17,267 nt of DNA from a virus (taxonomy: Duplodnaviria; Heunggongvirae; Uroviricota; Caudoviricetes), in IMG/VR virus record IMGVR_UViG_2565956714_000008, positions 1 to 17,267 of that record. One strand, 5' to 3'. The notes under the pieces are model-generated. The model was not told the DNA's origin, did no database searches, and saw only the letters and a program-made list of their open reading frames with translations. The position numbers were made by a program, and so were the translations under genes. This document shows, one piece after another, positions 2,565 through 15,429 of the stretch. The number at the start of each line of letters is the position of its first letter. Position 1 is the first letter of the stretch.

Positions 2565-3356
2565 TCATTGAAAACTGCTTTTAGAACTTGATACAACGGG
2601 ACTAGTCACAACAGGACTATTCTCAACGGGATCATCCTCAGAGGAACTATCATCAAAGTCATCATCCATAAATAAAATATCATCGAATGGTGCCACGCCC
2701 GTGATGAGTTTTATTTTATTATTACGATCAGTCAATACTCCACTTAAACCGTTTTCGCTCACAGGTTTTAATGATTTTTCATTACTCTTGTTGTAAGCAG
2801 GCGCATTAAAAATACACGGAGTATCAACATCAAACAATGACGTTCCCCAGTTCACATATTGAATATCATAGTTACTGAAGTTCTGTCCAGAAAAGAAGCA
2901 CCCCTTAAAATCCAATCCACGTAAATTATATAAACCACCCTCTTCTTTTTGGAGAGTAATGTTAATTTTGGCTATCTCCCGGACATCATCGCCATTTTTG
3001 TATTTGAATACCGTTTCAAGATGTTCTCCAGACAGCTTGACTTCAGGAAATAATTTGAAATCAAAGCCTATATTATTATGTGTCAACGTAGATGAACAAA
3101 AAATGGAAAAAGCTTGCAGTGCTGAATTATAGCTATCGATTTTATCTTGAGGCTGAGCTCTTGGTAAAAACTTATAGCAACACTCATAAAAATTAAACAG
3201 AAGCTCTGAAGACCTTGTATTTTTATCAAATAATACCCCCTTGAACTCATTCACAAACGCATCTTTTTTTTCTTGAATATCTATGGGGTGTTCCTTTGAC
3301 TCTGACAAAGATGAAATCTCATCTATTTTGTTTTCATATGAATTACGTGATTCCAT
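2565..3356 (-). CDS. Hypothetical protein, 263 aa, AT-rich, acidic Ser/Asp-rich C-terminus
   Basis: Long uninterrupted minus-strand ORF in AT-rich DNA; no recognisable domain; no clear Shine-Dalgarno before ATG 3356. Position corresponds to ypjB if my recollection of the K-12 gene order is right. Confidence 0.55.
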   Translation of the reverse strand: MESRNSYENKIDEISSLSESKEHPIDIQEKKDAFVNEFKGVLFDKNTRSSELLFNFYECCYKFLPRAQPQDKIDSYNSALQAFSIFCSSTLTHNNIGFDFKLFPEVKLSGEHLETVFKYKNGDDVREIAKINITLQKEEGGLYNLRGLDFKGCFFSGQNFSNYDIQYVNWGTSLFDVDTPCIFNAPAYNKSNEKSLKPVSENGLSGVLTDRNNKIKLITGVAPFDDILFMDDDFDDSSSEDDPVENSPVVTSPVVSSSKSSFQ

Positions 3357-3455
3357 ACAGACATTTGGCGGCGTTTCTAAAATAACACTACGCGTACTAC
3401 TTGGCTTAAGTAAACCAACATGAAAATCACTTTTTCTTATATTATCGAAAAGGTT

Positions 3456-4842: not shown

Positions 4843-4890
4843 GGTATCCTATAGGTATCCTGGAGCAGAACAAGCGATTTTCCAGGATAC
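4843..4890. promoter_or_regulatory. Putative integrase arm-type binding sites (GGTATCCT direct repeats plus inverted copy)
   Basis: ggtatcctataggtatcctgg at 4843-4863 and inverted copy tccaggatac at 4881-4890; a near-identical block ggtatcctataagtatcctgg occurs at 15367-15387 beside the other att core. Function inferred. Confidence 0.4.
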
Positions 4891-4914
4891 CAGATCGCTT
4901 GGTGGGGTGTATGA

Positions 4915-6336
4915 GTGAAATTATTCAGATTCTCTAAAGTAAAAATTGCAGAACTGCCAACGCCGGAACATGGACAGGTCGAATATGGTGATACGGAGGT
5001 TAACGGGCTGCGTGTCCGTGTAGGTTCGTCTGGTGTGAAAAGTTTCTGCATTTCCCGTAAGCGTAACGGAAAATTTATTCGTGCAACGCTGGGGCGTTTT
5101 CCTGATCTGAGCGTGGATAATGCCAGGGCTAAAGCTATGGAACTCCTTGGCGAAGTCGCCACAACGGGGATAAATCCGAACATAGCAAAGCGCACTAACA
5201 ACAAGGCCATGATAACGCTGAGTGAGGCGATTGACGCCTACGTAAAAAATCGTGGCCACCGCCTGAAACCCTCCACAGAAAAACAGTACCGCAGCATATT
5301 ACAGAATTATTCCGGTGACTGGATGGCCCATACCCTCGCCAGTATTTCCCGCGAACGGGTGGAACAACGGCATAAGGCCATCACTGATGGGGCTGTATGG
5401 TTCGGTGCTGATAAAACCACGTTACGGGCTGGGGTTGGTACAGGAAGCAAGGCACAGGCCGATTTATGGGCGCGTGCGCTACGTGCTGTGTGTCGGTTTG
5501 CGCATGATCATTACCGTGATGATGCGGGTAATACTCTTTTACCGGATCCGCCGACTCTGGTACTGAGCACCAAGCGCCAGTGGCACGGAACGGTAAGAAA
5601 AACGGAACGTATCCGCCTGCATGATTTTCCCCGCTGGTTTGCTGCTGTAGCTGCTGTGCGCGACCAGGGCGAACAGGAAAGGGATGATATAGCTGTTACG
5701 GTATGTGATGCCGTGGAAATGGCACTGTTTACCGGACTGAGGAAATCAGAAGTTTTTGGCCTTACGTGGGATCGCGTGAATATGGGCGGTCGCTTTTTCT
5801 GGATAGACACCACGAAAAACGGGGATCCGCTTGAACTGCCGATCACTGATACGTTGCGGAAAATGTTTCTTCGCAGGCTAAAAAACAAAGCTGCTGATGA
5901 TGTGCTGGTGTTTCCTGGCGTGAAGGGAGTGATTCAGGAGACACGGCACATCATAGACCGGATAAGCGCGGCTACCATTCCTGAGGCGAACGATGAAATG
6001 CTCTTCCCTGTCCCGTTTAAGTGGCACGACGCACGCCGGACGTTCGGAACGGTTGCTGAGCTGGTGGGCGTGGGTAATTACATCCTCAAGCGCCTGATGA
6101 ATCACCGCACTATGCGAAGTGCCGACGTAACGCAGGGGTATTTACATTTCGGTGCTGATGAACTGCTGGAGCCAGCATCACGGATAGAACGGGCAATTCT
6201 GGAACATGCCGGGCTGGTGGAGAGTAAAAAATCTATCGATGCGCAATTACTTTCCGCACTGGAGGGCATGAGTGATGATGAAAAACGTCGTTTACTATTT
6301 GCTATAGTACAAGAAAAGAATGACATATATGGGTGA
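4915..6336 (+). CDS. int: Tyrosine recombinase / integrase, P4-like with N-terminal arm-binding domain
   Basis: 473-aa ORF starting GTG 4915. The N-terminus (LPTPEHGQVEYGDTEVNGLRVRVGSSGVKSFCISRKRNGKFIRATLGRFPDLSVDNARAKAMELLGEV) fits the arm-binding domain pattern of P4-family integrases; C-terminal region has catalytic-domain signatures (LFTGLRKSEV, HDARRTFGT, TQGYLHF). Lies 180 bp inside the att repeat. Confidence 0.9.
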   Translation: MKLFRFSKVKIAELPTPEHGQVEYGDTEVNGLRVRVGSSGVKSFCISRKRNGKFIRATLGRFPDLSVDNARAKAMELLGEVATTGINPNIAKRTNNKAMITLSEAIDAYVKNRGHRLKPSTEKQYRSILQNYSGDWMAHTLASISRERVEQRHKAITDGAVWFGADKTTLRAGVGTGSKAQADLWARALRAVCRFAHDHYRDDAGNTLLPDPPTLVLSTKRQWHGTVRKTERIRLHDFPRWFAAVAAVRDQGEQERDDIAVTVCDAVEMALFTGLRKSEVFGLTWDRVNMGGRFFWIDTTKNGDPLELPITDTLRKMFLRRLKNKAADDVLVFPGVKGVIQETRHIIDRISAATIPEANDEMLFPVPFKWHDARRTFGTVAELVGVGNYILKRLMNHRTMRSADVTQGYLHFGADELLEPASRIERAILEHAGLVESKKSIDAQLLSALEGMSDDEKRRLLFAIVQEKNDIYG

Positions 6337-7045
6337 TAACAATATATCGGTCAAACAATATATTATTTATTCGGTTATGAATGATTTAATTACTGGTGGG
6401 CGAGACTCTTCAGTTTTAAACGTTCCTGTATCTTTATCCCCGAAAAACTCCACCATAGAGGCTATAAAACGCTTGATTGATGATATAAGAGATTATTTTT
6501 ATAAATCAAAGTATCCAACAAGAGAATTTCTTTTGTGTTATGGTTTAGAATTAAGAGAAATCGAGCAATATCCTATTGAATTAGCTATAAGAATGGATTC
6601 ATGTGGTTTTTTAATATTTGATAGTAAACTATCTTGTCAGGTTGTCGATACTTTAAATTCAGCAGTTGCATTGTACCATGTCGGAATGCGTAATCACGCA
6701 GACAAACTTACTAGGGTTGGTGTTGAGTTATTGCTTAATGACTTTTTTGAAGAAATTATATCGAACCATGAAAAAGATAAAAAAATAAAAGATGCTTTAT
6801 CCTTATCACAGAAAGAAAAAGCGCGCAAACCAAGAAATCATTATTACAATGAAGTTATGCACGTAATTAAACTAACATGGGAAAAGTACCCTAAAGCCAG
6901 TAAAACAGGTTTATTGAACGAGCTTTCTGTTTACTATCATGGGAAAGTAAGTAAAAACACTCTGGATAAATGGATTAAAGAATCAGGAGCACAACCACCA
7001 AGACCTGATAAATATTCTTCGTTTGAACTTGTTCACCCCCAATAG
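6320..7045 (+). CDS. Hypothetical protein, 241 aa, markedly AT-rich cargo gene; possible HTH near C-terminus
   Basis: ORF overlaps the integrase stop by 17 nt (ATG 6320; alternative ATG 6329). Base composition is visibly more AT-rich than the flanking integrase and regulator genes. No recognisable catalytic motif; C-terminal KASKTGLLNELSVYYHGKVSKNTLDKWIKE looks HTH-like. Confidence 0.55.
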   Translation: MTYMGDNNISVKQYIIYSVMNDLITGGRDSSVLNVPVSLSPKNSTIEAIKRLIDDIRDYFYKSKYPTREFLLCYGLELREIEQYPIELAIRMDSCGFLIFDSKLSCQVVDTLNSAVALYHVGMRNHADKLTRVGVELLLNDFFEEIISNHEKDKKIKDALSLSQKEKARKPRNHYYNEVMHVIKLTWEKYPKASKTGLLNELSVYYHGKVSKNTLDKWIKESGAQPPRPDKYSSFELVHPQ

Positions 7046-7073
7046 CTGGCTAGTGTATCTTAATAGCTGGCTA
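7041..7073. repeat. Two direct repeats aatagctggcta spaced 21 bp, upstream of the Xis/AlpA-like gene
   Basis: aatagctggcta at 7041-7052 and 7062-7073; a partial third copy (ctggctatt) near 7110. Possible regulator binding sites. Confidence 0.3.
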
Positions 7074-7150
7074 TTAAGGCTAAATAACTGGTAACCTCCC
7101 CACAGCAACTGGCTATTGGGCTAAAAACAAAATACCCATTGATTGATATT

Positions 7151-7184
7151 TATCACCGTTGTTACTTAGAAGTACACGGTGATA
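7151..7184. promoter_or_regulatory. Inverted repeat TATCACCGT-N16-ACGGTGATA overlapping the ribosome-binding region of the downstream HTH gene; candidate operator
   Basis: Perfect 9-bp arms at 7151-7159 and 7176-7184. The half-site TATCACCG resembles lambda-type operator half-sites, although the spacing differs from lambda operators. Confidence 0.4.
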
Positions 7185-7187
7185 GAT

Positions 7188-7397
7188 ATGAATTTAAAGA
7201 AATCTGATTTATCAACTGACCGCCTTACACGTGCTGAAGCTGCTGCCTACCTTGGCGTTAACAATCAAACGCTGGCGAACTGGGCCTGTACTGGCAAGGT
7301 AAAAATCCCTTTCCATAAGCTGGGGCGCAAAGTGCTGTATATGCGCACTGATCTCGATGCTTATCTTGCATCCACTCGCAGAACGCAGACGGTGTAA
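7188..7397 (+). CDS. Xis/AlpA-superfamily helix-turn-helix DNA-binding protein (excisionase-like or induction regulator)
   Basis: 69 aa from ATG 7188 (track start GTG 7179). LTRAEAAAYLGVNNQTLANWACTGKVKIPFHKLGRKVLYMRTDLDAYL fits the excisionase-family HTH pattern (L..EAA.YLGVS..TL..W...G.IP..K.GR...Y...DLDAYL). Confidence 0.75.
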   Translation: MNLKKSDLSTDRLTRAEAAAYLGVNNQTLANWACTGKVKIPFHKLGRKVLYMRTDLDAYLASTRRTQTV

Positions 7398-7744
7398 GGG
7401 GGAGTGATGGCACATAAAACAAAGGCGACCGCAGAGGGCCGCCAGTGGCATAACACTAAACTTGAGCATATCCAGAATACCAGGTTGTTGGCTGGTGGGC
7501 AATGCTATCAGTCTGGCTCGATTCGCTGCCATGCCTGCAATGAGCGTATTTTCCTAGAATACTCTTTAAGGTACTTCTCAAGGATAAACGCACATGGTGC
7601 GAATCTCTCCGGTTCATGTTCGTTTACCGCATTTTTGCGTTGTTTTTTCTTGGATGAGGATAATTTCTTTAATGATTTGTCAGTCATCGTAGATACCTGT
7701 AACCCTGTGCGCCACAGTTCACCGCACCACGGCGCTGGTGATGG

Positions 7745-7870
7745 TTACTCCTGCTCTTTGGCCTTGCGCCGCTGGCGGCGTTTGATCTCATCAAGGATTT
7801 TTCTTGGTAAGAAGCCTGCTGGTTTATTCTCTGGTAGAGAAAGTTTGTTATCGGTCTGCTTTTCAGTCAT
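7745..7870 (-). CDS. Small basic protein, 41 aa, translationally coupled to the upstream RHH gene
   Basis: ATG at 7870 lies 3 nt after the RHH stop codon (ATGtaTGA arrangement); encodes MTEKQTDNKLSLPENKPAGFLPRKILDEIKRRQRRKAKEQE. Below the ORF-track length cut-off; a weak call. Confidence 0.25.
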   Translation of the reverse strand: MTEKQTDNKLSLPENKPAGFLPRKILDEIKRRQRRKAKEQE

Positions 7871-7873
7871 ACA

Positions 7874-8065
7874 TCAGCCTTTAGGTTCAATGCCGCGTCG
7901 CTTTAGTTCGGCACGAGCTAATTCTTTAAACCAATTGCCGAGGGTTAGGCCATCGGCGGTTGCTGCCTCGTTTACTTGCTGGCGTAGTTCTTTGCTAATT
8001 CGTATCTGGAATGTCGGCGACCATCCCTCGCCGCGTGGTGATTTATCCCGCTTTAATGTTGACAT
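7874..8065 (-). CDS. Ribbon-helix-helix (Arc/CopG-like) DNA-binding protein, candidate repressor
   Basis: 63 aa; ...FQIRISKELRQQVNEAATADGLTLGNWFKELARAEL has the beta-strand/helix/helix layout of RHH proteins. Its start codon is embedded in a perfect palindromic operator (8064-8109). Confidence 0.6.
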   Translation of the reverse strand: MSTLKRDKSPRGEGWSPTFQIRISKELRQQVNEAATADGLTLGNWFKELARAELKRRGIEPKG

Positions 8066-8109
8066 GTACGTACGTAACTCCTATTATCATCAATATTACG
8101 TACGTACAT
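8064..8109. promoter_or_regulatory. Palindromic operator: two copies of the self-complementary 10-mer TACGTACGTA within perfect 14-bp inverted arms, in the divergent promoter region
   Basis: atgtacgtacgtaa (8064-8077) and ttacgtacgtacat (8096-8109) are exact reverse complements, separated by 18 bp that include the RHH gene's AGGAG ribosome-binding site. Confidence 0.55.
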
Positions 8110-8133
8110 TAACAGTAAGTGCAACAAAAAACA

Positions 8134-8168
8134 AAGCCCCGCAAGTGTCGTTACCACTCGCAGGGCTT
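8134..8168 (-). terminator. Hairpin with 12 of 14 paired bases, followed by a U-run on the minus strand only
   Basis: aagccccgcaagtg / cactcgcagggctt with loop tcgttac; A-tract 8121-8133 gives UGUUUUUUGUU after the hairpin on the minus strand. On the plus strand it would sit in the 5' UTR of the replication operon. Function uncertain. Confidence 0.3.
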
Positions 8169-8204
8169 CTAACCACCAACGATAACGAGAGTATCGAGGT
8201 AGCT

Positions 8205-8408
8205 ATGAGAAATCATACCATACACCCGCAAGGGCGGGATTCGCACAACCTGAATAAATTCGCCTGGCGTTTTATCGCCCTGAGCGCCGCAAAACCGCGT
8301 GTGATTACCATCGTGGCCACCAGCGAACAGGAAGCACGCCAGCACTCCCCGGCTGGCTGCGTGATGGTATTCGCCGCCCGTATTCGTCAGGGGGTGTGCC
8401 ATGCCTGA
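8205..8408 (+). CDS. Hypothetical protein, 67 aa, first gene of the plus-strand operon leading to the replication gene
   Basis: ATG 8205 with GAGGT 5 nt upstream; codon usage on this strand is typical of E. coli coding DNA (ctg, gcc, acc, atc, cgt, ccg), unlike the overlapping antisense ORFs; stop overlaps the next start (8401). Confidence 0.45.
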   Translation: MRNHTIHPQGRDSHNLNKFAWRFIALSAAKPRVITIVATSEQEARQHSPAGCVMVFAARIRQGVCHA

Positions 8409-8721
8409 TATGTCAAATTACCAGTACCTGATTAATCCGCATTTTAACTGTGAGCATGATATTGCTAAAAAGGTTTATTCCGCTGCGGATGGGGCGACTG
8501 ACAATATATCAATGGCCGTTGCGTCAATTGGTAGCCTGATGTGGCATGCGTCAGAAAATGAGGACTATGACGAAAAGGCCATGCGCATTGATATGGGTAA
8601 TATCGGTTTGTTACTGGCAATGCTTGGACATTTTGATATTTCGTTACGGTGCACCATTGAAAATGCCACAGATGCATTAAATGCCATAAAGAAAGCGAAT
8701 ACTGATTCAAATCGGGGATAA
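8401..8721 (+). CDS. Hypothetical protein, 106 aa
   Basis: ATG 8401 with GGGGG 6 nt upstream; overlaps the preceding stop; no recognisable domain. Confidence 0.5.
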   Translation: MPDMSNYQYLINPHFNCEHDIAKKVYSAADGATDNISMAVASIGSLMWHASENEDYDEKAMRIDMGNIGLLLAMLGHFDISLRCTIENATDALNAIKKANTDSNRG

Positions 8722-8727
8722 ATAATC

Positions 8728-9027
8728 ATGAGAACGTATTTATCTGGCTTGACTGCCAGCGGTTATGCACATCCCAAAATTATCCCCGGCGCTATTTATC
8801 TGGATAAGAACGGTAACAGAGTAACGGTAAAAGAACTGATGTTTGACCGTGTGTATTTTATTCGTGATGGCTATTCATTTCATAGTTCGCTGAACGTGGA
8901 GATCTTTATTAGCAGATTCAGGCGGGAAATCCCGCTTTCCAGAAATAACCATGTGTCACGTGTGAATGTGGATAAAAAACTACAGGAACTGAAAAACATG
9001 ATTGCCGCGTGGAGAGAGCAGAAATGA
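8728..9027 (+). CDS. Hypothetical protein, 99 aa
   Basis: ATG 8728 (GGGGA 9 nt upstream); its stop overlaps the replication-gene start (ATGA at 9024-9027), indicating translational coupling. Confidence 0.5.
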   Translation: MRTYLSGLTASGYAHPKIIPGAIYLDKNGNRVTVKELMFDRVYFIRDGYSFHSSLNVEIFISRFRREIPLSRNNHVSRVNVDKKLQELKNMIAAWREQK

Positions 9028-10841
9028 AAAAAGCGCCAAATTTAAAACACCAGTCGCGTGACAAAATGACGGAAGTCATCATTTTTGCGGGTAGTGATGC
9101 GTGGGCACATGCGAAGCAGTGGCAGGAACAGGACGGGCGACTGGCTGGCGATAACGTGCCTCCTGTCTGGCTTGGAGAGCAACAACTTGCCGAACTGGAC
9201 AACCTGCAAATCGTACCGGACGGACGCTATCGCGTGCGTCTCTATCAGGCGGGGTTATTGCGTCCGGGGCTTGTTAATACCATCGGGCAGAAACTGGCAG
9301 CGGCAGGTGTCAGGGATGCTGATTATTATCCTGAAGGAATGCACAGCCAGAAACGGGAGAACTGGCGCGAATATCTGGAACGTGAACGGGCAGAGCAGGC
9401 GGAAAAGAAAAAGGTAGTTGAACTGCCTGTAAAGAAAAAAGAGCGGGTAAAAGACGATAACGCTTCATCACTGGCGCTTAACCAGATGGGAGCAAGTCAA
9501 CGCGGCGAAGTTCTCCTGGCACATTATGGCGGTGAATTGGCGATTCATGCTGACTCTGACACTGTTCACCATTACAACGGCGTTGTATGGGAGCCAGTAC
9601 AGGATAAAGAATTACAGCGAGCTATGGCACAGATTTTCATTGATGCGGAGATCAGCTATTCGCAGAACGCCATTAAATCGGCGGTCGATACCATGAAGTT
9701 AAGTTTGCCTGTAATGGGGAATACAGCCCGTAACCTGATTGGATTCAGTAACGGGGTATTTGATACCAGAACAGGTAATTTTCGGGGGCATAACAAAAAC
9801 GACTGGTTGTTAATTGCCAGTGAATTACCTTTCAGCCCACCAGCAGAGGGGGAAACACTGGCAACACATGCGCCGAATTTCTGGAAGTGGTTACGCCGTT
9901 CGGTGGCTGAGAATGACCGCAAGGCAGATCGCGTACTGGCGGCATTATTCATGGTGCTGGCGAACCGGTACGACTGGCAGTTATTCATTGAGGTAACAGG
10001 GCCGGGGGGAAGTGGTAAAAGCGTGATGGCGGAGATTTGCACCATGCTGGCGGGTAAGGCTAATACAGTATCAGCAAGCATGAAGGCGCTGGAAGATGCA
10101 AGGGAACGTGCGTTAGTGGTTGGCTTTTCGCTGATTATCATGCCGGATATGACCCGCTACGCTGGTGATGGGGCAGGGATTAAGGCCATTACAGGCGGTG
10201 ACAAGGTGGCAATTGACCCGAAACACAAAGCCCCCTACTCAACGCGTATTCCGGCAGTAGTGCTGGCGGTTAACAATAACGCCATGTCATTCAGTGACCG
10301 CAGCGGGGGGATCTCACGTCGTCGGGTGATATTCAATTTTTCGGAAGTTGTACCGGAGAACGAACGCGATCCGATGCTGGCGGAAAAAATAGAAGGTGAG
10401 CTGGCGGTAGTGATTCGCCATCTGCTTACACGGTTTGCTGACCAGGACGAAGCCAGACGCCTGTTATATGAGCAGCAGAAATCTGAAGAAGCACTGGCGA
10501 TAAAGCGAGAGGGGGATTCGCTGGTGGACTTCTGCGGCTATCTCATGGCGTCGGTAATGTGTGATGGCCTGTTAGTGGGTAATGCTGAAATTGTGCCATT
10601 CAGCCCGCGCAGGTATCTCTATCATGCCTATCTGGCTTATATGAGGGCTCATGGGTTTGGTAAACCTGTAACACTGACGCGCTTCGGTAAAGATATGCCT
10701 GGGGCAATGGCGGAATATGGCAGGGAGTATATAAAACGGAAAACGAAGCACGGTTTACGTTCAAACGTGACACTGACGGAGGAATCAGAAGACTGGATGC
10801 CATCATGTGTATCAGTCACTAATGACGATAGCAAAAATTAA
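9024..10841 (+). CDS. Replication initiator: primase/SF3-helicase-like P-loop NTPase (Pri-Rep type)
   Basis: 605 aa from ATG 9024 (GGAGAGAG 5 nt upstream; track start GTG 9009). Walker A VTGPGGSGKSVMAEIC and a downstream hydrophobic-acidic segment (LIIMPDM) as candidate Walker B, in the C-terminal half; immediately followed by an iteron cluster as in PICI/SaPI and P4-type replication modules. The N-terminal half has no motif I can assign. Confidence 0.8.
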   Translation: MKKAPNLKHQSRDKMTEVIIFAGSDAWAHAKQWQEQDGRLAGDNVPPVWLGEQQLAELDNLQIVPDGRYRVRLYQAGLLRPGLVNTIGQKLAAAGVRDADYYPEGMHSQKRENWREYLERERAEQAEKKKVVELPVKKKERVKDDNASSLALNQMGASQRGEVLLAHYGGELAIHADSDTVHHYNGVVWEPVQDKELQRAMAQIFIDAEISYSQNAIKSAVDTMKLSLPVMGNTARNLIGFSNGVFDTRTGNFRGHNKNDWLLIASELPFSPPAEGETLATHAPNFWKWLRRSVAENDRKADRVLAALFMVLANRYDWQLFIEVTGPGGSGKSVMAEICTMLAGKANTVSASMKALEDARERALVVGFSLIIMPDMTRYAGDGAGIKAITGGDKVAIDPKHKAPYSTRIPAVVLAVNNNAMSFSDRSGGISRRRVIFNFSEVVPENERDPMLAEKIEGELAVVIRHLLTRFADQDEARRLLYEQQKSEEALAIKREGDSLVDFCGYLMASVMCDGLLVGNAEIVPFSPRRYLYHAYLAYMRAHGFGKPVTLTRFGKDMPGAMAEYGREYIKRKTKHGLRSNVTLTEESEDWMPSCVSVTNDDSKN

Positions 10842-10853
10842 ACTTATGGAATA

Positions 10854-11085
10854 ACTGTTCACCACTGTTCACCCTGTCATAAATATCTTTTATATCAGTA
10901 TATTATAGGGTGAACAGTTATTTATGAACTATTCACCAAACTATTCACTGTTCACCTTTTTGGTTGTTTATTGAGCTTCAAGGGTGAACAGTGGTGAACA
11001 GTTGGTGAATAGTTTTTGTAAAACTGTTCACCCCTTAACAGTATGAATTTAAATGGAAAATATCAAAAGGTGAACAGGTGAAGGG
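10854..11085. repeat. Iteron-type replication origin: about 11 copies of ACTGTTCACC / GGTGAACAGT in both orientations within AT-rich spacers
   Basis: tgttcacc at 10856-10863, 10866-10873, 10949-10956, 11025-11032; variant tattcacc at 10930-10937; inverted ggtgaaca at 10909-10916, 10983-10990, 10993-11000, 11069-11076; variants ggtgaata at 11004-11011 and ggtgaagg at 11078-11085. Several copies are tandem with ~10-bp period. Confidence 0.7.
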
Positions 11086-11128
11086 TTAAAATACAAAAAT
11101 TTTAATTTATTGCTCTGAGATAAAGCCT

Positions 11129-11374
11129 ATGACAGCGAAGCGCACAAAAAAAACACAATCGCACGCCCTTGATTTGACGGAACACTGGTTAAGGGGGTCG
11201 ATAAAAATCATCGACCGCAACGCCGGGGAAGGATACGCGAAAGCACATCCCGAACTGATAAGCGCATTCATGACCACGGCGGCGGCAAATTTTGCCACGC
11301 TAACAGAGCGGGAGATTGCCGAAGCGGAACAGGTAACAACCATCAACGTTAAAACCGGAGAGCAGACAGCATGA
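11129..11374 (+). CDS. Hypothetical protein, 81 aa
   Basis: ATG 11129 with only a weak ribosome-binding site; stop overlaps the SSB start (ATGA at 11371-11374). No recognisable domain. Confidence 0.45.
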   Translation: MTAKRTKKTQSHALDLTEHWLRGSIKIIDRNAGEGYAKAHPELISAFMTTAAANFATLTEREIAEAEQVTTINVKTGEQTA

Positions 11375-11793
11375 CAGCACAGATAGCGGCTTACGGACGG
11401 CTGGTGGCTGACCCGCAGTTAAAGACCACTAGCAAGGGTACACAAATGACGATGGCTAGTATGGCGGTCCCCCTTCCGTGCAGCCAGGCAGATGACGGAA
11501 CGGCGACGATGTGGTTATCCGTCCTGGCGTTTGGCAGACAGGCCGACGCACTGGCAAAACACCACAAAGGCGAACTGGTGAGCGTGGCGGGTAACATGCA
11601 GGTAAGCCAGTGGACAGGCCAGAACGGCGAAACGCGGCAGGGCTGGCAGGTTATCGCAGACAGTGTAATCAGTGCCAGAACGGCGCGACCGGGCGGCAAA
11701 AAAGGTCAACAGGGCCAGGCTACTGACGCACTGAACAGGGCAAAACAACAGTCGGGGAATGATGATCCGTACGGCGATAATATACCGTTTTAA
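11371..11793 (+). CDS. ssb: Single-stranded DNA-binding protein (SSB) with acidic C-terminal tip
   Basis: 140 aa; OB-fold region WLSVLAFGRQADALAKHHKGELVSVAGNMQVSQWTGQNGETRQGWQVIAD parallels E. coli SSB ([51 protein letters not shown]); Gly/Gln-rich linker and C-terminal DDPYGDNIPF resembling the SSB tail DDDIPF. Confidence 0.8.
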   Translation: MTAQIAAYGRLVADPQLKTTSKGTQMTMASMAVPLPCSQADDGTATMWLSVLAFGRQADALAKHHKGELVSVAGNMQVSQWTGQNGETRQGWQVIADSVISARTARPGGKKGQQGQATDALNRAKQQSGNDDPYGDNIPF

Positions 11794-11803
11794 ATTCTGC
11801 AAA

Positions 11804-11839
11804 TAAAAAAATGCCGGAAGAAAATAGATTTTCCGGCAT
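11804..11839 (-). terminator. Stable hairpin (9-bp stem ATGCCGGAA/TTCCGGCAT) between ssb and the capsid gene, forming a canonical intrinsic terminator only in the minus orientation
   Basis: Stem 11811-11819 and 11831-11839, loop 11 nt; A-run 11804-11810 gives a U-run after the hairpin on the minus strand; no U-run follows it on the plus strand. Confidence 0.35.
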
Positions 11840-12010
11840 GCTACATAAATCCCGACCAAAGGAAGTAAATACATTAACACGAATTATCAGCACTGAAGTT
11901 GTCACGGCAGATTTTATACAACATTGCACTTGGTTGCATGTATTCGCATAGCAAATATCGGTGATAGCATATATCCACAATTATTTTTAATGAATGCAAA
12001 GAGGATGCGT

Positions 12011-13051
12011 ATGGTTGATTTATATTCGCCTGCCCAGCTTGTGCAGGTGGCTAATGCTGAAGATGTGCAAAAAAAATTAAATGTGTTGTTTACCAGTTTG
12101 TTTTTCACTCGCTCGGTAATGTTTGAATCGAGAGACATTATTCTTGATACGATCGACGATCCAAATATCCCGATCGCGGCGTTTTGCTCTCCTATGGTGG
12201 GCAGTAAAGTTTCACGAGATGAGGGATACGAATCAAAAACAATTCGCCCTGGCTATATGAAACCGAAAAGCAGCATTGATCCAAATAAGTTAGCTGTGCG
12301 CCCTGCTGGTGTGTCACCTGAGCAATACAATGCTTTTGGGGCGCGTAATATTAAAGTTAAACAGGCGATTGTAAATCAGGCTAAAGCTATTCGTACACGT
12401 ATTGAATGGCTTGCTGTTCAGGCAATCACAACGGGGAAAAATATCATTGAGGGCGATGGTATTGAACGTTATGAGCTGGACTGGAATATAAAACCACAAA
12501 ATATCATCACTCAGTCTGGCGGTACTGAGTGGTCAGGTAAGGATAAAGAAACTTTTGATCCAAATGATGATATTGAGAGCTACGCAGAATTTAGTGAGGG
12601 CGTCACTAATATCATCATTATGGGCGGTAATGTATGGAAGAAATACCGTTCATTCAGAGCGATAAAAGAGGCTCTGGATACCCGTCGTGGTTCTAATTCC
12701 GAACTGGAAACGGCCCTTAAAGACCTTGGTGATTCGGTGAGTTTTAAAGGGTATATGGGCGATGTTGCGATTGTTGTTTACAGCGGGCGTTATACCGACG
12801 AGGACGGAACTGAAAAATATTTCCTTGATCCTGATTTGATGGTGCTTGGCAATACGGCTCTCCAGGGGATTGTCGCTTATGGCGGTATTCAGGATCCGGA
12901 GCTAATCCGGATGGGGCTGACTAAAGCCGAACTTGCACCGAAAAACTATATTGTGCCTGGTGATCCGGCTATTGAATATGTGCAGACACATTCAGCACCA
13001 CAGCCAATACCGGCCCGTATCAATCGTTTTGTTACCGTTCGCATTGGCTAA
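12011..13051 (+). CDS. Major capsid protein, lambda gpE family
   Basis: 346 aa from ATG 12011 (AAAGAGGA, 5-nt spacer; track start 11924 is upstream in frame). Long colinear matches to lambda gpE as I recall it: ITQSGGTEWSGKDKETFDPNDDIESY vs ITQSGGTEWSKRDKSTYDPTDDIEAY; DTRRGSNSELETALKDLG vs DTRRGSNSELETAVKDLG; GDVAIVVYSGRY vs GDVAIVVYSGQY; MVLGNT in both. Confidence 0.9.
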   Translation: MVDLYSPAQLVQVANAEDVQKKLNVLFTSLFFTRSVMFESRDIILDTIDDPNIPIAAFCSPMVGSKVSRDEGYESKTIRPGYMKPKSSIDPNKLAVRPAGVSPEQYNAFGARNIKVKQAIVNQAKAIRTRIEWLAVQAITTGKNIIEGDGIERYELDWNIKPQNIITQSGGTEWSGKDKETFDPNDDIESYAEFSEGVTNIIIMGGNVWKKYRSFRAIKEALDTRRGSNSELETALKDLGDSVSFKGYMGDVAIVVYSGRYTDEDGTEKYFLDPDLMVLGNTALQGIVAYGGIQDPELIRMGLTKAELAPKNYIVPGDPAIEYVQTHSAPQPIPARINRFVTVRIG

Positions 13052-13061
13052 GGGGGGAGCA

Positions 13062-13403
13062 ATGGCTACTCATTACACTGAACTCATGGCTGGCACTGAA
13101 GCACTGGTTACTACGCTGGGGATATTTTCAGCTAATAAAGGGGTAATTCCTGCATTTACGCCACTGATGCAGGAAGATACAACAGGTGCACTGGTGGTAT
13201 GGGATGGTACGAGTGCAGGTAAAGCTGTTTATGTTTCCGCTGTACAACTCGATACAGCGAAAAAAACACAGGCTCAGGTCTATAAGACAGGTGTCTTAAA
13301 TGTTGATGCTCTTAACTGGCCTGAGTCAGTAAAAGAACTGTCAGTAAAGGTTGCAGCGTTTGTTGGCTCAGGTATTTCTGTTCAGCCGCTGGCTCGTGTG
13401 TAA
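13062..13403 (+). CDS. Head decoration protein, lambda gpD family
   Basis: 113 aa from ATG 13062 (GGGGGGAG upstream). IPAFTPLMQEDTTGALVVWDGTSAGKAV...KTGVLNVDALNWPE...AAFVGSGISV parallels lambda gpD [28 protein letters not shown]...KSGTFRYEDVLWPE...TAFAGTAISIV. Confidence 0.85.
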   Translation: MATHYTELMAGTEALVTTLGIFSANKGVIPAFTPLMQEDTTGALVVWDGTSAGKAVYVSAVQLDTAKKTQAQVYKTGVLNVDALNWPESVKELSVKVAAFVGSGISVQPLARV

Positions 13404-13414
13404 AGGGGGATACA

Positions 13415-13798
13415 ATGCAGAATCATTACAATGACCTTAAGCCAATTGCCGAAATGATGTATCCGGATCCAGCAGTAGAGGAATTAAAGGCTATTGCTGA
13501 CAAAATGCGTTTAAGCGAGCGTCTTGTTGATATGAATCAGGTGATGGAACTTACAACCCTGAGTCGTCGTACACTGCTAAACCTTGAAGCACGTGGAGAG
13601 TTCCCCGAACGCGTGCAGGTTACGGAAGGGCGTAAGGCCTGGTATTTAAGCGAAGTGATCGACTGGATAAACAATATTCCGCGCGCTTCTGAATATTGCC
13701 GCGTACCTGTCCCAAAAAAGCCAGATGCGGCGCTATGCCTCAAGATTGATCGTGTACGCCGCAATGCACGGGATGGTCGCTATAAGCTGATTGGTTGA
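13415..13798 (+). CDS. AlpA-family HTH protein with ~40-aa N-terminal extension, immediately upstream of cos
   Basis: 127 aa, ATG 13415 with GGGGGA 5 nt upstream. MELTTLSRRTLLNLEARGEFPERVQVTEGRKAWYLSEVIDWINN fits the AlpA pattern (T.LSR.T...L...G.FP.PV.LG.R...W...EV..WI). Confidence 0.7.
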   Translation: MQNHYNDLKPIAEMMYPDPAVEELKAIADKMRLSERLVDMNQVMELTTLSRRTLLNLEARGEFPERVQVTEGRKAWYLSEVIDWINNIPRASEYCRVPVPKKPDAALCLKIDRVRRNARDGRYKLIG

Positions 13799-13822
13799 TG
13801 AAATTAGGGCCCGTTCTGGCTG

Positions 13823-14020
13823 GCGGGTCCTTTCCGGCGATCCGGTAGGCTACGGGGCGTCAGGCGCGCGGGTTTTCGCTTTTTATGAAAATTTTCCGGT
13901 TTAAGGCGTTTCCGTTCTTCTTCGCCGTAACTTTATGTTTTTATTTGAAACACCCCCTGAAAAGAAAGGAAACGACAGGTGCTGAAAACGGGCTTTTTGG
14001 CCTCTGTCGTTTCCTTTCTC
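13823..14020 (+). other. Lambda-type cos site: cosQ-like segment, cosN-equivalent 12-mer (13855-13866, divergent) and cosB with R3, I1, R2 and R1 elements
   Basis: From 13867 onward the sequence (cgcgggttttcgctttttatgaaaattttccggtttaaggcgtttccgttcttcttcg ... ctgaaaagaaaggaaacgacaggtgctgaaaacgggctttttggcctctgtcgtttcctttctc) is nearly identical to my recollection of lambda left-end bases 13-170, including R3 cgtttccgttct (13907-13918), R2 agaaaggaaacg (13963-13974) and R1 cgtttcctttct (14008-14019). Upstream gcgggtcctttccggcgatccggtaggctacg parallels the lambda right end ACGGGTCCTTTCCGGTGATCCGACAGGTTACG. The 12-mer is GGGCGTCAGGCG here versus GGGCGGCGACCT in lambda. Confidence 0.8.
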
Positions 14021-14339
14021 GTTTTTGAGCAAAACTGGCTCTATACATGCTTAGAAATGCTAGGGTTTTTGCGTAATACAGGTAGTGCAGGAGATTCACC
14101 AGGGGATTATTCATATATGCTGGTAGGCGCTATGTGTTAGTGGTGAGCGAAAAACAATCAAAACCGACACCGTAAAAATAAAAATCACAAATTATCAATT
14201 AGTTGTGCCAGTGGTGATGGCGAATGAAATTTCAAAAACTAGCCTTTTTCCGCGATGCTTTCGCCCCGTGGCAGGCCACCCCACCAGGAGGACCCGCTAC
14301 AATTACGGTATCAACCTCATCACTATGGAGGCCATGACC

Positions 14340-14624
14340 ATGACCGAGACCGAAGCGCTCGAAATAATCCGCAGTATTACCGGAATCAGCCAGGCAACAG
14401 GCAAACAGGAGGCCACGCAGCCGGACAGCGTCACCGCTGAAAATTACGCGCGTGTGGTGGCTGAGGTGATGCGCCGTGACGGTATTGAGCTTAACGGCGT
14501 GGATATGCGCAACATACGAACCAGAGTCCTTGAGTTGCTGGCATACCGTCGCCGTTCTCAACAACGGAGGGAGAGCGCGAAAAATACTTACCAGTGGAAG
14601 AAGCCGGAACGACTGCGGTGGTAA
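14340..14624 (+). CDS. Hypothetical protein, 95 aa, in the position lambda Nu1 occupies relative to cosB but unrelated to Nu1
   Basis: Best-supported start ATG 14340 (GGAGG with 8-nt spacer); in-frame alternatives at 14205 (GTG), 14217, 14325 and 14334. Arg-rich C-terminus; no recognisable domain. Confidence 0.45.
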   Translation: MTETEALEIIRSITGISQATGKQEATQPDSVTAENYARVVAEVMRRDGIELNGVDMRNIRTRVLELLAYRRRSQQRRESAKNTYQWKKPERLRW

Positions 14625-14642
14625 CTTGCTGATATTCCCGAT

Positions 14643-14890
14643 AACGCAAAATTGCGTTGGCTGGTGGGTGAGTTGCAGATCTGCAACTCGACCATGAAAC
14701 TACGGAAACTACCCGTAGTTTGGGTAGTAAGAGTAACACCCAGATTTTGGGGCTTACTCGCGATACCCAAATAAAGGGTATCGGTGGAAGAAATATCGTT
14801 TCTCATATGTGAGTACCGAGGGCGGAATTCCGCCTTCGGTTACTTATTGTGCTCATGCACAGGGAGAGGCGGGTACAAATCTCTGTACCC
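14643..14890. repeat. Cluster of six inverted repeats/palindromes in a ~250-bp non-coding stretch
   Basis: AACGCAA-aa-TTGCGTT (14643-14658); perfect 20-bp palindrome GAGTTGCAGATCTGCAACTC (14670-14689); AAACTACGG/CCGTAGTTT (14697-14721) overlapping ACTACCC/GGGTAGT (14708-14728); GATACCC/GGGTATC (14762-14782); GGCGGAATTCCGCC (14821-14834); GGGTACA/TGTACCC (14871-14890). Confidence 0.45.
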
Positions 14891-15033
14891 TGACGTCTTC
14901 CGGACTGCCAGCCCCATCGTTTTTTTACGCCCGCGAAAAATAAAAATTGTTTGTATGTGAGTATTGTAGCCAGCAAAAGCTCTTTCTTTAGTGGCTTATT
15001 GTTTCTAATAGATTTTGGGAGGTAGAAATGGGA

Positions 15034-15053
15034 GGCCCAGCGAAAGCTGGGCC
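15034..15053 (-). terminator. GC hairpin with GAAA tetraloop (GGCCCAGC-gaaa-GCTGGGCC) just downstream of the small minus-strand ORF
   Basis: 8-bp perfect stem; on the minus strand it follows the stop at 15072 and is followed by a C/U-rich tract (UCCCAUUUCU), so not a textbook U-run. Confidence 0.3.
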
Positions 15054-15071
15054 GAGCTTGTTACGCTGTCA

Positions 15072-15215
15072 TTACTTCAGCATGATAACTAAAGCTATAC
15101 ATACTAGCACTACGGCTATTGGGCATAGACCTAAATTGCCAAGTGCTGCGATTAAACCTGTAACGGCAATCACACGTGCAGACAGCAGGTCTGAGCCCTT
15201 TCTTAAAGTATCCAT
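15072..15215 (-). CDS. Small hydrophobic protein, 47 aa, with a predicted C-terminal transmembrane helix
   Basis: ATG at 15215 preceded by GGAGG with 5-nt spacer; encodes MDTLRKGSDLLSARVIAVTGLIAALGNLGLCPIAVVLVCIALVIMLK. Below the ORF-track length cut-off. It is antisense to the 100-aa plus-strand ORF 15028-15330, which also has a strong ribosome-binding site, so the call is uncertain. Confidence 0.35.
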   Translation of the reverse strand: MDTLRKGSDLLSARVIAVTGLIAALGNLGLCPIAVVLVCIALVIMLK

Positions 15216-15366
15216 TGATACCTCCGTCAGGGTTTTTGCCGGTCTCTTGGAGAGTTGGGGGCAAAAGTTCAGACCCGTAGCACTTTCTTGTTCGCAGGTG
15301 AACGGCTGCTACGACCCAACTGTTCTGTAGGCATGAGCCAATTCTTACTTGTTAATACTTCTCAGA

Positions 15367-15387
15367 GGTATCCTATAAGTATCCTGG
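15367..15387. promoter_or_regulatory. Putative integrase arm-type sites (second copy of the GGTATCCT repeat block)
   Basis: ggtatcctataagtatcctgg, 43 bp from the tRNA/att core; near-identical to 4843-4863 at the other end of the element. Confidence 0.4.
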
Positions 15388-15429
15388 TAAAGCAAGATAG
15401 TTTGGATACATCTGTAATTCATTGAAATC

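What the first reader, a model, noticed from the sequence alone, without database searches (positions are those of the whole stretch)
7508..8168. RHH regulator embedded in perfect palindromic operators and divergent from the replication operon: candidate master repressor
A 63-aa ribbon-helix-helix protein has its start codon inside a 14-bp arm of a perfect inverted repeat built from the self-complementary 10-mer TACGTACGTA, with a second arm 18 bp away. The site lies in the promoter region shared with the divergently transcribed operon (8205 onward) that leads into the replication gene. Two further small basic ORFs (7745-7870 and 7508-7687, both starting ATGACTGA) follow the RHH gene on the minus strand, and a hairpin at 8134-8168 sits between the operators and the plus-strand operon. 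The layout suggests autoregulation and repression of replication functions until helper induction.
Basis: partly seen in the sequence, partly recalled or inferred. Interest (0 to 1): 0.55.

Follow-up and report, generated by a model that had tools for sequence, protein, structure and literature searches.

The report
Phage-satellite repressor switch with antisense RNA
In an E. coli phage-satellite island, the gene for a tiny DNA-binding protein sits on two matching palindromic sites that bracket the promoter of the island's replication genes, next to an unannotated SymR-like antisense RNA; together they look like the 'off switch' that has not been identified in Gram-negative phage-inducible islands.

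Summary
A 63-aa ribbon-helix-helix (RHH, Arc-like) gene (7874-8065, minus) starts inside one arm of a perfect 14-nt inverted repeat (8064-8077 / 8096-8109). The two GTACGTAC boxes bracket the -10 of a near-consensus rightward promoter (TTGACA 8059-8064, 17 nt, TATTAT 8082-8087). This promoter drives the Icd-like/DUF4222/primase operon.

The layout recurs in about 57 loci of Enterobacterales and in a Pasteurella satellite. Six different DNA-reading residue triplets in the RHH beta-strand go with six different box sequences.

It is the 3' stem-loop and terminator of a ~79-nt minus-strand antisense RNA (8204 to ~8126). This RNA is related to E. coli SymR and to the R1162 countertranscript, and it covers the ribosome-binding site of the Icd-like gene.

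The two small downstream ORFs are not conserved partners, so this is not a toxin-antitoxin pair.

The prototype Gram-negative PICI, EcCICFT073, has the same architecture with a different regulator (YlcI/YnfO) and different repeats.

Best reading: an exchangeable repressor-operator cassette plus an antisense RNA keeps the replication operon silent. Whether the RHH protein is what the helper phage targets is untested. Published genetics point to AlpA instead.

The parts
7874..8065 (-). 63-aa ribbon-helix-helix (Arc-like) regulator gene. The predicted DNA-reading residues are T18, Q20 and R22 in the strand SPTFQIRI.
   Evidence: ORF. AF2 gives an extended segment followed by helices 25-37 and 42-56. 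The top Foldseek PDB hits are all RHH proteins, with Arc first. The best PDB sequence match is Arc. Close homologues carry PF05534.
8064..8077 (.). Proximal operator arm (core GTACGTAC, 8066-8073). It overlaps the RHH start codon and lies in the spacer of the rightward promoter.
   Evidence: The box directly abuts the ATG in most relatives.
8096..8109 (.). Distal operator arm (core GTACGTAC, 8100-8107). It lies at about +1 to +13 of the rightward promoter and overlaps the -10/+1 of the RHH promoter.
   Evidence: This is the more conserved of the two boxes across loci.
8059..8087 (+). P_early: sigma-70 promoter TTGACA (8059-8064), 17 nt, TATTAT (8082-8087), with the inferred start near 8093-8095. 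It drives the Icd-like/primase operon. The -35 hexamer is the complement of RHH codons 1-3.
   Evidence: 11 of 12 consensus matches. TTGACA is intact in 51 of 57 loci, the Ser2 codon is TCA in 51 of 57, and a -10 with A2/T6 is present in 43.
8106..8114 (-). P_RHH: extended -10 TGTTAATGT, with the inferred start near 8099.
   Evidence: TGnTAnnnT lies 47-50 nt upstream of the RHH ATG in 37 of 57 loci. This is a motif-level prediction only.
8126..8204 (-). Cis-antisense RNA of about 79 nt, SymR/R1162-countertranscript type. SL1 (8204-8171) has an anti-Shine-Dalgarno loop, followed by the invariant linker UGGUUAG. SL2 (8169-8133) is followed by a U-tract. The RNA is complementary to the 5' UTR and SD of the Icd-like gene.
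   Evidence: Fold. Alignment to K-12 symR. Two-hairpin fold in 50 of 50 loci, always more stable on this strand. Covariation. The covariance model scores the window at 73.5 bits and finds K-12 SymR at E = 2e-4.
8212..8220 (-). Promoter of the antisense RNA: extended -10 TGGTATGAT, embedded in codons 3-5 of the Icd-like gene.
   Evidence: It aligns with the experimentally validated symR -10 TAGAAT (PMC1891008). A TAnnnT hexamer is present at this position in 48 of 50 loci.
8205..8408 (+). Icd-like first gene of the early operon (SD GAGG at 8196-8199).
   Evidence: NCBIfam NF033153, E = 9e-18. RefSeq annotation.
8401..10841 (+). Rest of the early operon: a 106-aa ORF, a DUF4222 protein and a primase. 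Start and stop codons overlap between successive genes.
7745..7870 (-). orf41, 3 nt downstream of the RHH stop. Its last ~15 codons are the conserved tail of YlcI/YnfO regulators in sister islands, so it is probably a product of the cassette swap.
7508..7687 (-). orf59, a small basic protein conserved in Escherichia satellites (core ERFAPCAF.LEK). It is accessory and not linked to the RHH gene outside Escherichia.
   Evidence: PHROG 21027, E = 5e-30. Homologues down to 64% identity keep the ORF. It is absent next to RHH genes in other genera.
7424..7443 (-). Terminator-like hairpin with a T-run that closes the minus-strand unit RHH-orf41-orf59.
7179..7397 (+). Excisionase-type HTH_17 gene at the position that AlpA occupies in EcCICFT073. 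No strong plus-strand terminator separates it from the cassette.

Best explanation
The window carries an EcCICFT073-type phage-inducible chromosomal island. The segment 7790-8220 is its early-gene switch, made of two parts.

(1) An exchangeable repressor-operator cassette. Dimers of the 63-aa RHH protein bind two palindromic GTACGTAC boxes whose centres are 34 bp apart. One box fills the spacer of the strong rightward promoter P_early. The other covers its start site and also the -10/+1 of the leftward RHH promoter. Binding therefore shuts off the Icd-like/DUF4222/primase operon and autoregulates the RHH gene.

(2) A ~79-nt SymR-family antisense RNA. It is transcribed leftward from a promoter inside the first codons of the Icd-like gene and ends at the 8133-8169 hairpin. 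It pairs with the 5' UTR and Shine-Dalgarno of any escaping early mRNA and blocks translation of the Icd-like leader gene. Because the operon genes overlap, this probably also reduces expression of the downstream primase.

Shown here: the sequence features, their conservation, RNA covariation, protein-box covariation and the RHH fold.

Inferred: DNA binding, repression, the transcription start sites, expression of the RNA, and the link to helper induction. Induction most likely works through read-through or activation from the upstream AlpA/excisionase-type gene rather than through direct inactivation of the RHH protein.
For: - Inverted repeat and boxes.
- Promoter geometry. It is conserved in 51 of 57 loci, with a fixed TCA Ser codon.
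- RHH fold. Close homologues reach the PF05534 threshold.
- Specificity covariation, residue triplet to box:
  - TQR to GTACGTAC (about 50 loci)
  - ISR to GTATGGACC
  - PHR to GTGTACACC
  - MNR to GTATAGACC
  - QQR to GGTAATTACC/GGTATATACC in Pasteurella Pmp8
  - AQR to GGTGTGTACC/GGTACGCAC
- Same geometry with unrelated regulators and repeats: L074 and EcCICFT073.
- The divergent operons lead to primases in many genera.
- Antisense RNA:
  - Strand-specific fold.
  - Covariation: SL2 90.5% paired with 10 of 14 pairs compensatory; SL1; the model-fitted alignment 92.7% paired with 22 of 23 compensatory.
  - Its promoter aligns with the validated symR -10.
  - A model built only from satellite loci finds K-12 SymR at exactly its annotated coordinates.
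  - Sub-threshold Rfam hits to SymR and R1162.
Against: - There is no experimental datum for this locus.
- The window protein itself is below every curated RHH family threshold.
- About ten TQR loci have a degenerate proximal box. L046 and L055 combine a TQR protein with a GGTCCATAC-type proximal box.
- The SD-to-ATG spacing of the RHH gene is long, at 12 nt.
- The RHH promoter is a motif call only, and it is absent in 20 of 57 loci.
- In EcCICFT073, over-expression of AlpA alone triggers excision and runaway replication (PMC6092414). The repressor layer is therefore either overridden or not dominant.
- The window's upstream HTH gene is not an AlpA (PF05930) orthologue.
Confidence: 0.65

Rival explanations
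1. The RHH protein is the antitoxin of a type II toxin-antitoxin pair (it is annotated 'HicB family antitoxin' in relatives). The small basic ORFs downstream would be the toxin, and the palindromes would be the usual autoregulatory operator of a TA operon.
For: Relatives are named HicB antitoxin and carry PF05534. There are weak hits to HicB, RelB and MazE-type RHH antitoxins. A satellite survey lists 'HicB' as a TA module (PMC13612085).
Against: - The protein is only the 63-aa RHH domain and has no HicB N-terminal domain.
- No HicA or other conserved gene follows or precedes it. The downstream genes differ in every genus, and orf41 and orf59 are absent outside Escherichia.
- orf41 and orf59 match no toxin family.
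- The operators sit on the promoter of the opposite-strand replication operon.
Confidence: 0.05
2. The inverted repeat acts as an RNA hairpin rather than a protein-binding site. It would be a 5'-UTR structure that hides the RHH start codon, or an attenuator.
For: The arms can pair as RNA (-16.1 kcal/mol). Variant loci keep the inverted-repeat relation, in one case through a U.G pair (L032). Read-through transcripts from the antisense-RNA promoter would contain both arms.
Against: - Each box is itself a palindrome (GGTAC|GTACC). A hairpin does not need this, but a dimeric protein does.
- The distal box is kept where the proximal one has decayed, and this breaks the hairpin in about ten loci.
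- The boxes change together with the beta-strand residues.
- Transcripts from either predicted promoter would contain only one arm.
- In EcCICFT073 the equivalent elements are direct repeats, not inverted ones.
Confidence: 0.08
3. The module is a plasmid-style copy-number controller, not a quiescence or immunity switch. RHH protein and antisense RNA would act as gene-dosage sensors that limit primase synthesis once the island is replicating. The on/off decision would be made by AlpA or an excisionase-type activator responding to the helper.
For: - A small RHH repressor combined with a countertranscript is the known design of pMV158 (CopG plus RNA II; PMC2724298 for CopG, the rest from general knowledge).
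- The RNA is related to the R1162 copy-control RNA.
- The same module is found on IncR and other plasmids and on a 16-kb episomal satellite.
- AlpA alone induces EcCICFT073.
Against: - It does not exclude the main explanation, because the same parts would also silence a single integrated copy.
- The RHH gene is divergent and autoregulated, not co-transcribed with the replication gene as copG is.
- The module also drives non-replication genes, such as SymE-like toxins.
Confidence: 0.2
4. The palindromes are a chance low-complexity (GTAC)n run, and the small ORF is not a functional gene.
For: The repeat is built from a 4-nt unit. With one mismatch allowed, 10 of 200 shuffles reach two matches to the 10-mer.
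Against: - None of 300 simulations produced a 14-nt perfect inverted repeat.
- The boxes, their spacing and the gene are conserved across more than 50 species-level loci at 48-79% protein identity, with an invariant SPTFQIRI strand.
Confidence: 0.01

Closest known systems
Arc and Mnt repressors of phage P22 immI (RHH repressors at overlapping divergent promoters, together with the sar antisense RNA)
   Same: A small RHH protein. Arc is the best sequence and fold match in the PDB. The operators lie on divergent, overlapping promoters, and a short antisense RNA lies in the same control region (the P22 details come from general knowledge).
   Different: There is no significant sequence identity (E = 0.11). 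Here there are two separate 8-10-bp palindromic boxes 34 bp apart instead of one 21-bp operator. The controlled genes are a satellite replication operon, not an antirepressor.
SymR antisense RNA of E. coli (Rfam RF01809)
   Same: [quoted passage not shown]
- Its promoter is embedded in the first codons of the target.
- The -10 elements align, and both RNAs have the two-hairpin shape with a GUGRUUAG linker.
- A model built from the satellite loci finds SymR at its exact coordinates.
   Different: - Hits are below Rfam's gathering score (30 bits against 61 in relatives; no SymR hit in the window itself).
- The target here is an Icd-like/primase operon rather than symE.
- The sense promoter is controlled by RHH boxes rather than LexA.
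- Here the RNA ends in a U-tract terminator.
R1162/RSF1010 countertranscript (Rfam RF00043) and other plasmid copy-control pairs (pMV158 CopG plus RNA II)
   Same: Sub-threshold Rfam match across the whole model, including the AACCACCAA linker and the SD/AUGGCU start (L053 45.9 bits; window 16.7 bits). The logic is the same: a small repressor plus a countertranscript acting on a replication gene.
   Different: The match is below the gathering score (55). The repressor gene here is divergent and sits on the operators. The host element is an integrated phage satellite. The Rfam model is written in mRNA sense.
Stl/Rpr master repressors of Gram-positive PICIs (SaPIs)
   Same: A regulator gene transcribed divergently from the excision/replication operon of a phage-inducible island (PMC6092414).
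   Different: Stl/Rpr proteins are much larger, are not known to be RHH proteins (general knowledge), and are inactivated by helper proteins. This protein is a 63-aa RHH with no evident partner-binding domain. No antisense RNA is known in SaPI control.
YlcI/YnfO-family cassettes in EcCICFT073 and other E. coli PICIs and cf-PICIs
   Same: They occupy the same position and orientation, with two repeats bracketing the -10 of the early promoter and the same antisense RNA next to them. There is a weak profile link (NF041551, E = 4e-4).
   Different: BLAST finds no similarity. The repeat sequences differ (GGTGAAATACAC; GTGGGCCACACC). The fold of YlcI/YnfO was not tested.

Membership tests
Ribbon-helix-helix (Arc/MetJ/CopG) transcription factors | Beta-strand followed by two helices, in about 45-60 residues | tested here: met
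   AF2 gives an extended segment at 17-24, then helices 25-37 and 42-56, with pLDDT 79-90 over the domain. All the top Foldseek PDB hits are RHH proteins, and Arc gives TM 0.85 normalised to the target.
Ribbon-helix-helix (Arc/MetJ/CopG) transcription factors | Sequence match to a curated RHH family at its threshold | tested here: inconclusive
   The window protein is below every cut-off: HicB 17.6 against 21, Arc 12.2 against 20.4, YlcI_YnfO_N 20.3 against 30. Homologues at 53-79% identity do reach PF05534.
Ribbon-helix-helix (Arc/MetJ/CopG) transcription factors | Symmetric or repeated operator at a promoter, with specificity set by the beta-strand side chains | tested here: met
   Two palindromic boxes lie on the promoters. 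Six residue triplets pair with six box variants.
Ribbon-helix-helix (Arc/MetJ/CopG) transcription factors | Sequence-specific DNA binding as a dimer or tetramer | not testable with these tools
   This needs EMSA or footprinting.
HicB-type antitoxin (type II TA) | An adjacent cognate toxin gene (HicA), conserved as a pair | tested here: not met
   There is no conserved neighbour on either side in 71 loci, and orf41 and orf59 are absent outside Escherichia.
HicB-type antitoxin (type II TA) | An N-terminal HicB (partial RNase H-like) toxin-neutralising domain | tested here: not met
   The protein is 63 aa, and only the C-terminal RHH part matches (residues 18-46 against profile positions 19-47).
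SymR / R1162-type cis-antisense RNA | [quoted passage not shown] | tested here: met
   The alignment to symR puts TATGAT (8217-8212) on the validated -10 and the +1 at 8204. TAnnnT is conserved in 48 of 50 loci. This rests on sequence only.
SymR / R1162-type cis-antisense RNA | Score at or above the Rfam gathering threshold | tested here: not met
   The window has no SymR hit at E<=10, and scores 16.7 bits against 55 for R1162. Relatives score 30.2 against 61 (SymR) and 45.9 against 55 (R1162).
SymR / R1162-type cis-antisense RNA | Shared secondary structure and detectable homology with SymR | tested here: met
   The two-hairpin fold is supported by covariation. Model R1, which contains no symR sequence, hits K-12 symR at 1336-1410 with 28.6 bits, E = 2e-4 in 366 kb.
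SymR / R1162-type cis-antisense RNA | The RNA is expressed and represses translation of its target | not testable with these tools
   This needs Northern blots or RNA-seq, and -10 mutants.
PICI master repressor (Stl/Rpr type) | A regulator divergent from the excision/replication operon of a phage-inducible island | tested here: met
PICI master repressor (Stl/Rpr type) | Homology to Stl/Rpr proteins | tested here: not met
   Family searches give only RHH-type hits, and the protein is 63 aa.
PICI master repressor (Stl/Rpr type) | Repression is lifted by a helper-phage protein | not testable with these tools
   In EcCICFT073 the known inducing step is AlpA expression.
Gram-negative PICI (EcCICFT073 type), the host element | int, a small HTH regulator, a primase with adjacent iteron ori and a capsid-redirection/packaging module, with no lysis or tail genes, integrated at a specific site | tested here: met
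   The RefSeq annotation of an identical island shows the same late-gene set as EcCICFT073. Iterons lie at 10844-11090. A tRNA lies at 15433-15505. The HTH gene is of the excisionase type, not PF05930 AlpA.

The most novel reading that the evidence does not exclude
Gram-negative PICIs, including the prototype EcCICFT073, do after all encode a repressor-based immunity switch. It would consist of interchangeable small-regulator/operator cassettes (Arc-like RHH, or YlcI/YnfO) whose boxes bracket the -10 of the early promoter, coupled to a SymR-family antisense RNA. Cassette type would set which islands cross-repress each other. Helper induction would work by AlpA-driven transcription running through and silencing the cassette, or by helper factors that inactivate the small repressor.
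Probability: 0.3. Interest if true: 0.75.

Novelty: new variant of a known kind. Interest (0 to 1): 0.6.

Why it matters
[quoted passage not shown] It calls the difference from Gram-positive islands 'a mystery' (PMC6092414). Later satellite surveys list the small HicB-like and YlcI/YnfO genes only as accessory or toxin-antitoxin genes (PMC13612085).

The analysis here shows that these genes sit on cognate repeats at the early promoter. It also shows that an unannotated SymR-like RNA lies beside them in dozens of species and in EcCICFT073 itself.

That yields a concrete two-layer model for how these islands stay silent. It can be tested with a few reporter constructs and gel shifts. It also suggests exchangeable specificity cassettes that could be used for engineered PICI 'drones'.

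Tried and rejected
- **Known RNA families.** I looked for a P1 c4 / P4 CI-type RNA, because the operon starts with an Icd-like gene. Rfam gave nothing for these families in the window at E<=1 or in the region at E<=10.
- **Toxin-antitoxin reading.** Rejected, because there is no conserved partner gene.
- **Face-to-face promoter model.** I first suspected that the RHH gene had no promoter of its own and was read only through the hairpin. A conserved extended -10 directly upstream of the distal box makes a dedicated promoter more likely. Read-through remains possible where the U-tract is missing.
- **First hairpin finder.** It used fixed window lengths and mis-called many loci. I replaced it with an anchor-based extraction.
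- **Single alignment of all the RNAs.** MAFFT put the two SL2 length classes out of register. I therefore built the model from one class and let Infernal align the rest.
- **IncQ leader.** I could not retrieve a canonical one. The RSF1010 accession is not held, the IncQ1 hybrid I fetched lacks the leader, and a BLAST of the RNA region against plasmids was uninformative.
- **orf59 in phage records.** No match.
- **Direct comparison with other regulators.** BLAST found no similarity between the RHH and CFT073 YlcI/YnfO, and only an insignificant 15-residue match between the HTH_17 protein and AlpA.
Full report
**What the element is.** The window is E. coli DNA. Positions ~4900-15430 are a small integrated island, next to a tRNA at 15433-15505. 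Its gene order is:
- int (4915-6336)
- a 241-aa ORF
- an excisionase-type HTH_17 gene (7179-7397)
- three small minus-strand ORFs
- a plus-strand operon: Icd-like (8205-8408), a 106-aa ORF, DUF4222, primase (to 10841)
- iterons (10844-11090)
- SSB
- genes annotated 'major capsid', 'head decoration' and terminase small subunit

The same late-gene set and order occur in EcCICFT073, the prototype Gram-negative phage-inducible chromosomal island. The finding therefore sits in the regulatory region of an EcCICFT073-type satellite.

**Checking the observation.**
- The inverted repeat is exact: 8064-8077 and 8096-8109, 14 nt, 18 nt apart.
- TACGTACGTA and its core GTACGTAC occur only there in 17 kb.
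- No 14-nt perfect inverted repeat with a short gap arose in 300 simulated windows.

**The protein.**
- Family searches give only sub-threshold hits, but every one is to an RHH family: HicB C-terminal domain, Arc, YlcI/YnfO_N, MobA, RelB.
- A small family of 63-aa homologues exists in Enterobacterales, and several of them carry PF05534.
- AF2 predicts an extended segment followed by two helices.
- All the top Foldseek hits in the PDB are RHH proteins, with Arc first.
- A profile of the family aligns end to end with Arc, placing T18, Q20 and R22 on Arc's base-contacting Q9, N11 and R13.

**What the boxes sit on.** A consensus scan finds one strong promoter in the region, on the plus strand: TTGACA (8059-8064), 17 nt, TATTAT (8082-8087), matching 11 of 12 positions.
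- The proximal box fills the spacer of this promoter.
- The distal box lies just after the -10, at about +1 to +13.
- The -35 hexamer is the complement of RHH codons Met-Ser-Thr.

I fetched 71 loci that encode relatives and analysed 57 of them; the other 15 are chromosomal paralogues without boxes.
- TTGACA is intact in 51.
- Serine-2 uses TCA in 51, a synonymous-codon constraint that indicates selection at the DNA level.
- A -10 with A2/T6 follows at 16-18 nt in 43.
- TGnTAnnnT, an extended -10 for the RHH gene, lies 47-50 nt upstream of the ATG in 37, with its last bases inside the distal box.

The boxes thus overlap both divergent promoters. This supports repression of the operon and autoregulation at the level of architecture.

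**Protein-operator covariation.** Loci with the strand SPTFQIRI have GTACGTAC boxes with centres 34 bp apart. Variants go with different boxes at the same positions:

| Beta-strand | Locus | Boxes |
|---|---|---|
| SPIFSVRL | L005 | GTATGGACC / GGTCCATAC |
| SPPFHMRI | L032, L033 | GTGTACACC / GGTGTGCAC |
| APMFNVRI | L044 | GTATAGACC / GGTCTATAC |
| SPQYQMRL | Pasteurella 'phage' Pmp8, a 15-kb satellite | GGTAATTACC / GGTATATACC |
| APAFQIRI | L079 and Klebsiella records | GGTGTGTACC / GGTACGCAC |

There are exceptions. About ten TQR loci keep only the distal box. L046 and L055 have a foreign proximal box.

In sister E. coli islands a ~345-bp segment (window ~7790-8134) is replaced by a cassette encoding a YlcI/YnfO protein with its own repeats (GGTGAAATACAC). 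One of these repeats lies in the spacer and one lies after the -10 of TTGAAG-17-TAAATT. EcCICFT073 has a third version: GTGGGCCACACC twice, bracketing the -10 of TTGACG-18-TATAGT. Three cassettes that BLAST cannot relate to one another share one geometry. That is strong indirect evidence for a repressor-operator relation.

**The hairpin is an antisense RNA gene.**
- The 8133-8169 hairpin folds far better on the minus strand, through G.U pairs (-26.8 kcal/mol, z = -4.7), and is followed there by a U-tract.
- Alignment of the intergenic regions shows a conserved block on the RHH strand: TAnnnT, 7 nt, AGCCAT (the complement of the divergent gene's start), a small stem-loop with CUCC in its loop, an invariant UGGUUAG, and then the large hairpin.
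- The block aligns with E. coli K-12 symR, including the symR -10 (TAGAAT). Mutation of that -10 abolishes SymR (PMC1891008). By this alignment the window RNA starts at 8204 and is about 79 nt long.
- In 50 of 50 loci with the anchor (two of the anchors are doubtful), the segment folds into the same two hairpins. It is more stable on the RHH strand by a mean of 10.4 kcal/mol.
- Covariation is strong. In SL2, 10 of 14 pairs show compensatory changes and 90.5% of cells are paired, against about 40-47% when partners are slid. In SL1, 7 of 13 pairs are compensatory. The model-fitted alignment gives 22 of 23, but that alignment leans towards the model.
- Rfam gives only sub-threshold matches to SymR and, on the other strand, to the R1162 countertranscript. 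The R1162 model is written in mRNA sense, which explains the strand.
- A covariance model built from 11 satellite loci finds the following:

| Target | Coordinates | Score |
|---|---|---|
| K-12 SymR | its annotated coordinates | 28.6 bits, E = 2e-4 |
| Pasteurella Pmp8 | 4859-4928 | 38 bits |
| YlcI-type island (L074) | 3148-3218 | 75 bits |
| EcCICFT073 | 8781-8852 | 71.9 bits |
| IncR plasmid (L077) | 3335-3404 | 77 bits |
| Window | 8133-8204, minus strand | 73.5 bits |

The RNA is complementary to the Shine-Dalgarno of the Icd-like gene. In most loci it also covers the start codon.

**The small ORFs.** Neither orf41 nor orf59 follows the RHH gene in other genera, and the downstream genes are variable cargo. 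This rejects the toxin-antitoxin reading.
- orf41 shares only its C-terminal ~15 residues with the YlcI/YnfO tail. The left breakpoint of the cassette swap falls inside it.
- orf59 is a genuine small protein family confined to Escherichia. The ORF is maintained down to 64% identity.

**Generality.** The divergent operon leads to a primase in Serratia, Erwinia, Xenorhabdus, Morganella, Pantoea, Pasteurella and a 16-kb episomal Klebsiella satellite. In a few loci the same module drives a SymE-like toxin or other genes. RHH homologues also occur on 115 plasmid records.

**Mechanism, and what is only inferred.**
- Shown: the features, their conservation, the covariation and the fold.
- Inferred: RHH dimers on the two boxes occlude the strong early promoter and the RHH promoter. 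The antisense RNA blocks translation of the Icd-like leader gene on escaping transcripts. Because the operon genes overlap, primase synthesis probably falls too.
- Induction: published work shows that AlpA activates EcCICFT073, and that its over-expression alone causes excision and runaway replication. The upstream HTH gene is on the plus strand, with no strong terminator before the cassette. Activator-driven read-through that both bypasses and interferes with the cassette is therefore a plausible induction route. This is speculation.
- Copy-number control after induction is an equally compatible role.

**Novelty.** RHH repressors on palindromic operators and SymR/R1162-type antisense RNAs are both known kinds. 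Their pairing as an exchangeable early-gene switch in Gram-negative phage satellites was not found in the literature I could search. That literature states that a repressor in these islands is unclear and treats the small genes as accessory. I rate it a new variant of a known kind, of moderate to high interest to people who work on satellites.

Noticed in passing
window 10844-11090: Eleven copies of an 11-nt iteron (GGTGAACAGTT / AACTGTTCACC), in both orientations, lie directly after the primase gene. This is the likely replication origin of the island.
   Followed up: partly
window 7745-7870 and ~7790 / ~8134: The island differs from sister islands by a ~345-bp cassette swap. The left breakpoint lies inside orf41, whose last ~15 codons (..EIKRRQRRKAKEQE) equal the C-terminal tail of YlcI/YnfO regulators. 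Some orf59 homologues also end in ..AKEQE, which suggests a recombination hot spot.
   Followed up: partly
L081 (NC_004431.1, EcCICFT073) 8243-8852: The prototype PICI has a minus-strand YlcI/YnfO gene, two GTGGGCCACACC repeats bracketing the -10 of its early promoter, and the same antisense RNA (71.9 bits). The small genes carry late-added locus tags, so they were probably absent from the annotation used in the 2018 study.
   Followed up: yes
L047, L048, L053 (about 125-440 nt upstream of the RHH gene, opposite strand): In these loci the same RHH/operator/antisense-RNA module drives a SymE-like toxin gene instead of a replication operon. This links the module directly to the symE-symR system.
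   Followed up: partly
L058-L072 (Erwinia and Pantoea chromosomes): A diverged RHH paralogue (strand SAAFQLRI) has no GTACGTAC boxes. It is preceded only by an SL2-like hairpin and lies near OmrA/OmrB sRNA genes and an RND-efflux lipoprotein gene. It may be a domesticated remnant of the module.
   Followed up: no
Rfam RF00043 match, window 8134-8206 (+) and L053 2855-2928 (-): The consensus of the R1162 'antisense RNA' model ends in a Shine-Dalgarno plus AUGGCUac, which is the start of IncQ repA. The model is therefore in mRNA sense and hits the strand opposite to the actual countertranscript.
   Followed up: partly
L076 (NZ_CP069874.1, 15,995-bp circular 'plasmid' of K. pneumoniae): Its gene content (int, AlpA, KilAC antirepressor, RHH, Icd-like, DUF927 primase) shows that it is an episomal phage satellite deposited as a plasmid. 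It carries the same RHH plus antisense-RNA module.
   Followed up: partly
window 7404-8408 (+): A 334-aa open frame runs on the plus strand through all three minus-strand genes and ends as the Icd-like gene. It is not annotated in RefSeq and is probably a by-product of the opposite-strand coding.
   Followed up: no
window 13963-14019 and 14815-14840: There is a 26-nt-arm hairpin after the capsid-module genes, and an 18-nt palindrome ACCGAGGGCGGAATTCCGCCTTCGGT near the terminase-small-subunit region. Their function was not examined; terminator or packaging site are candidates.
   Followed up: no
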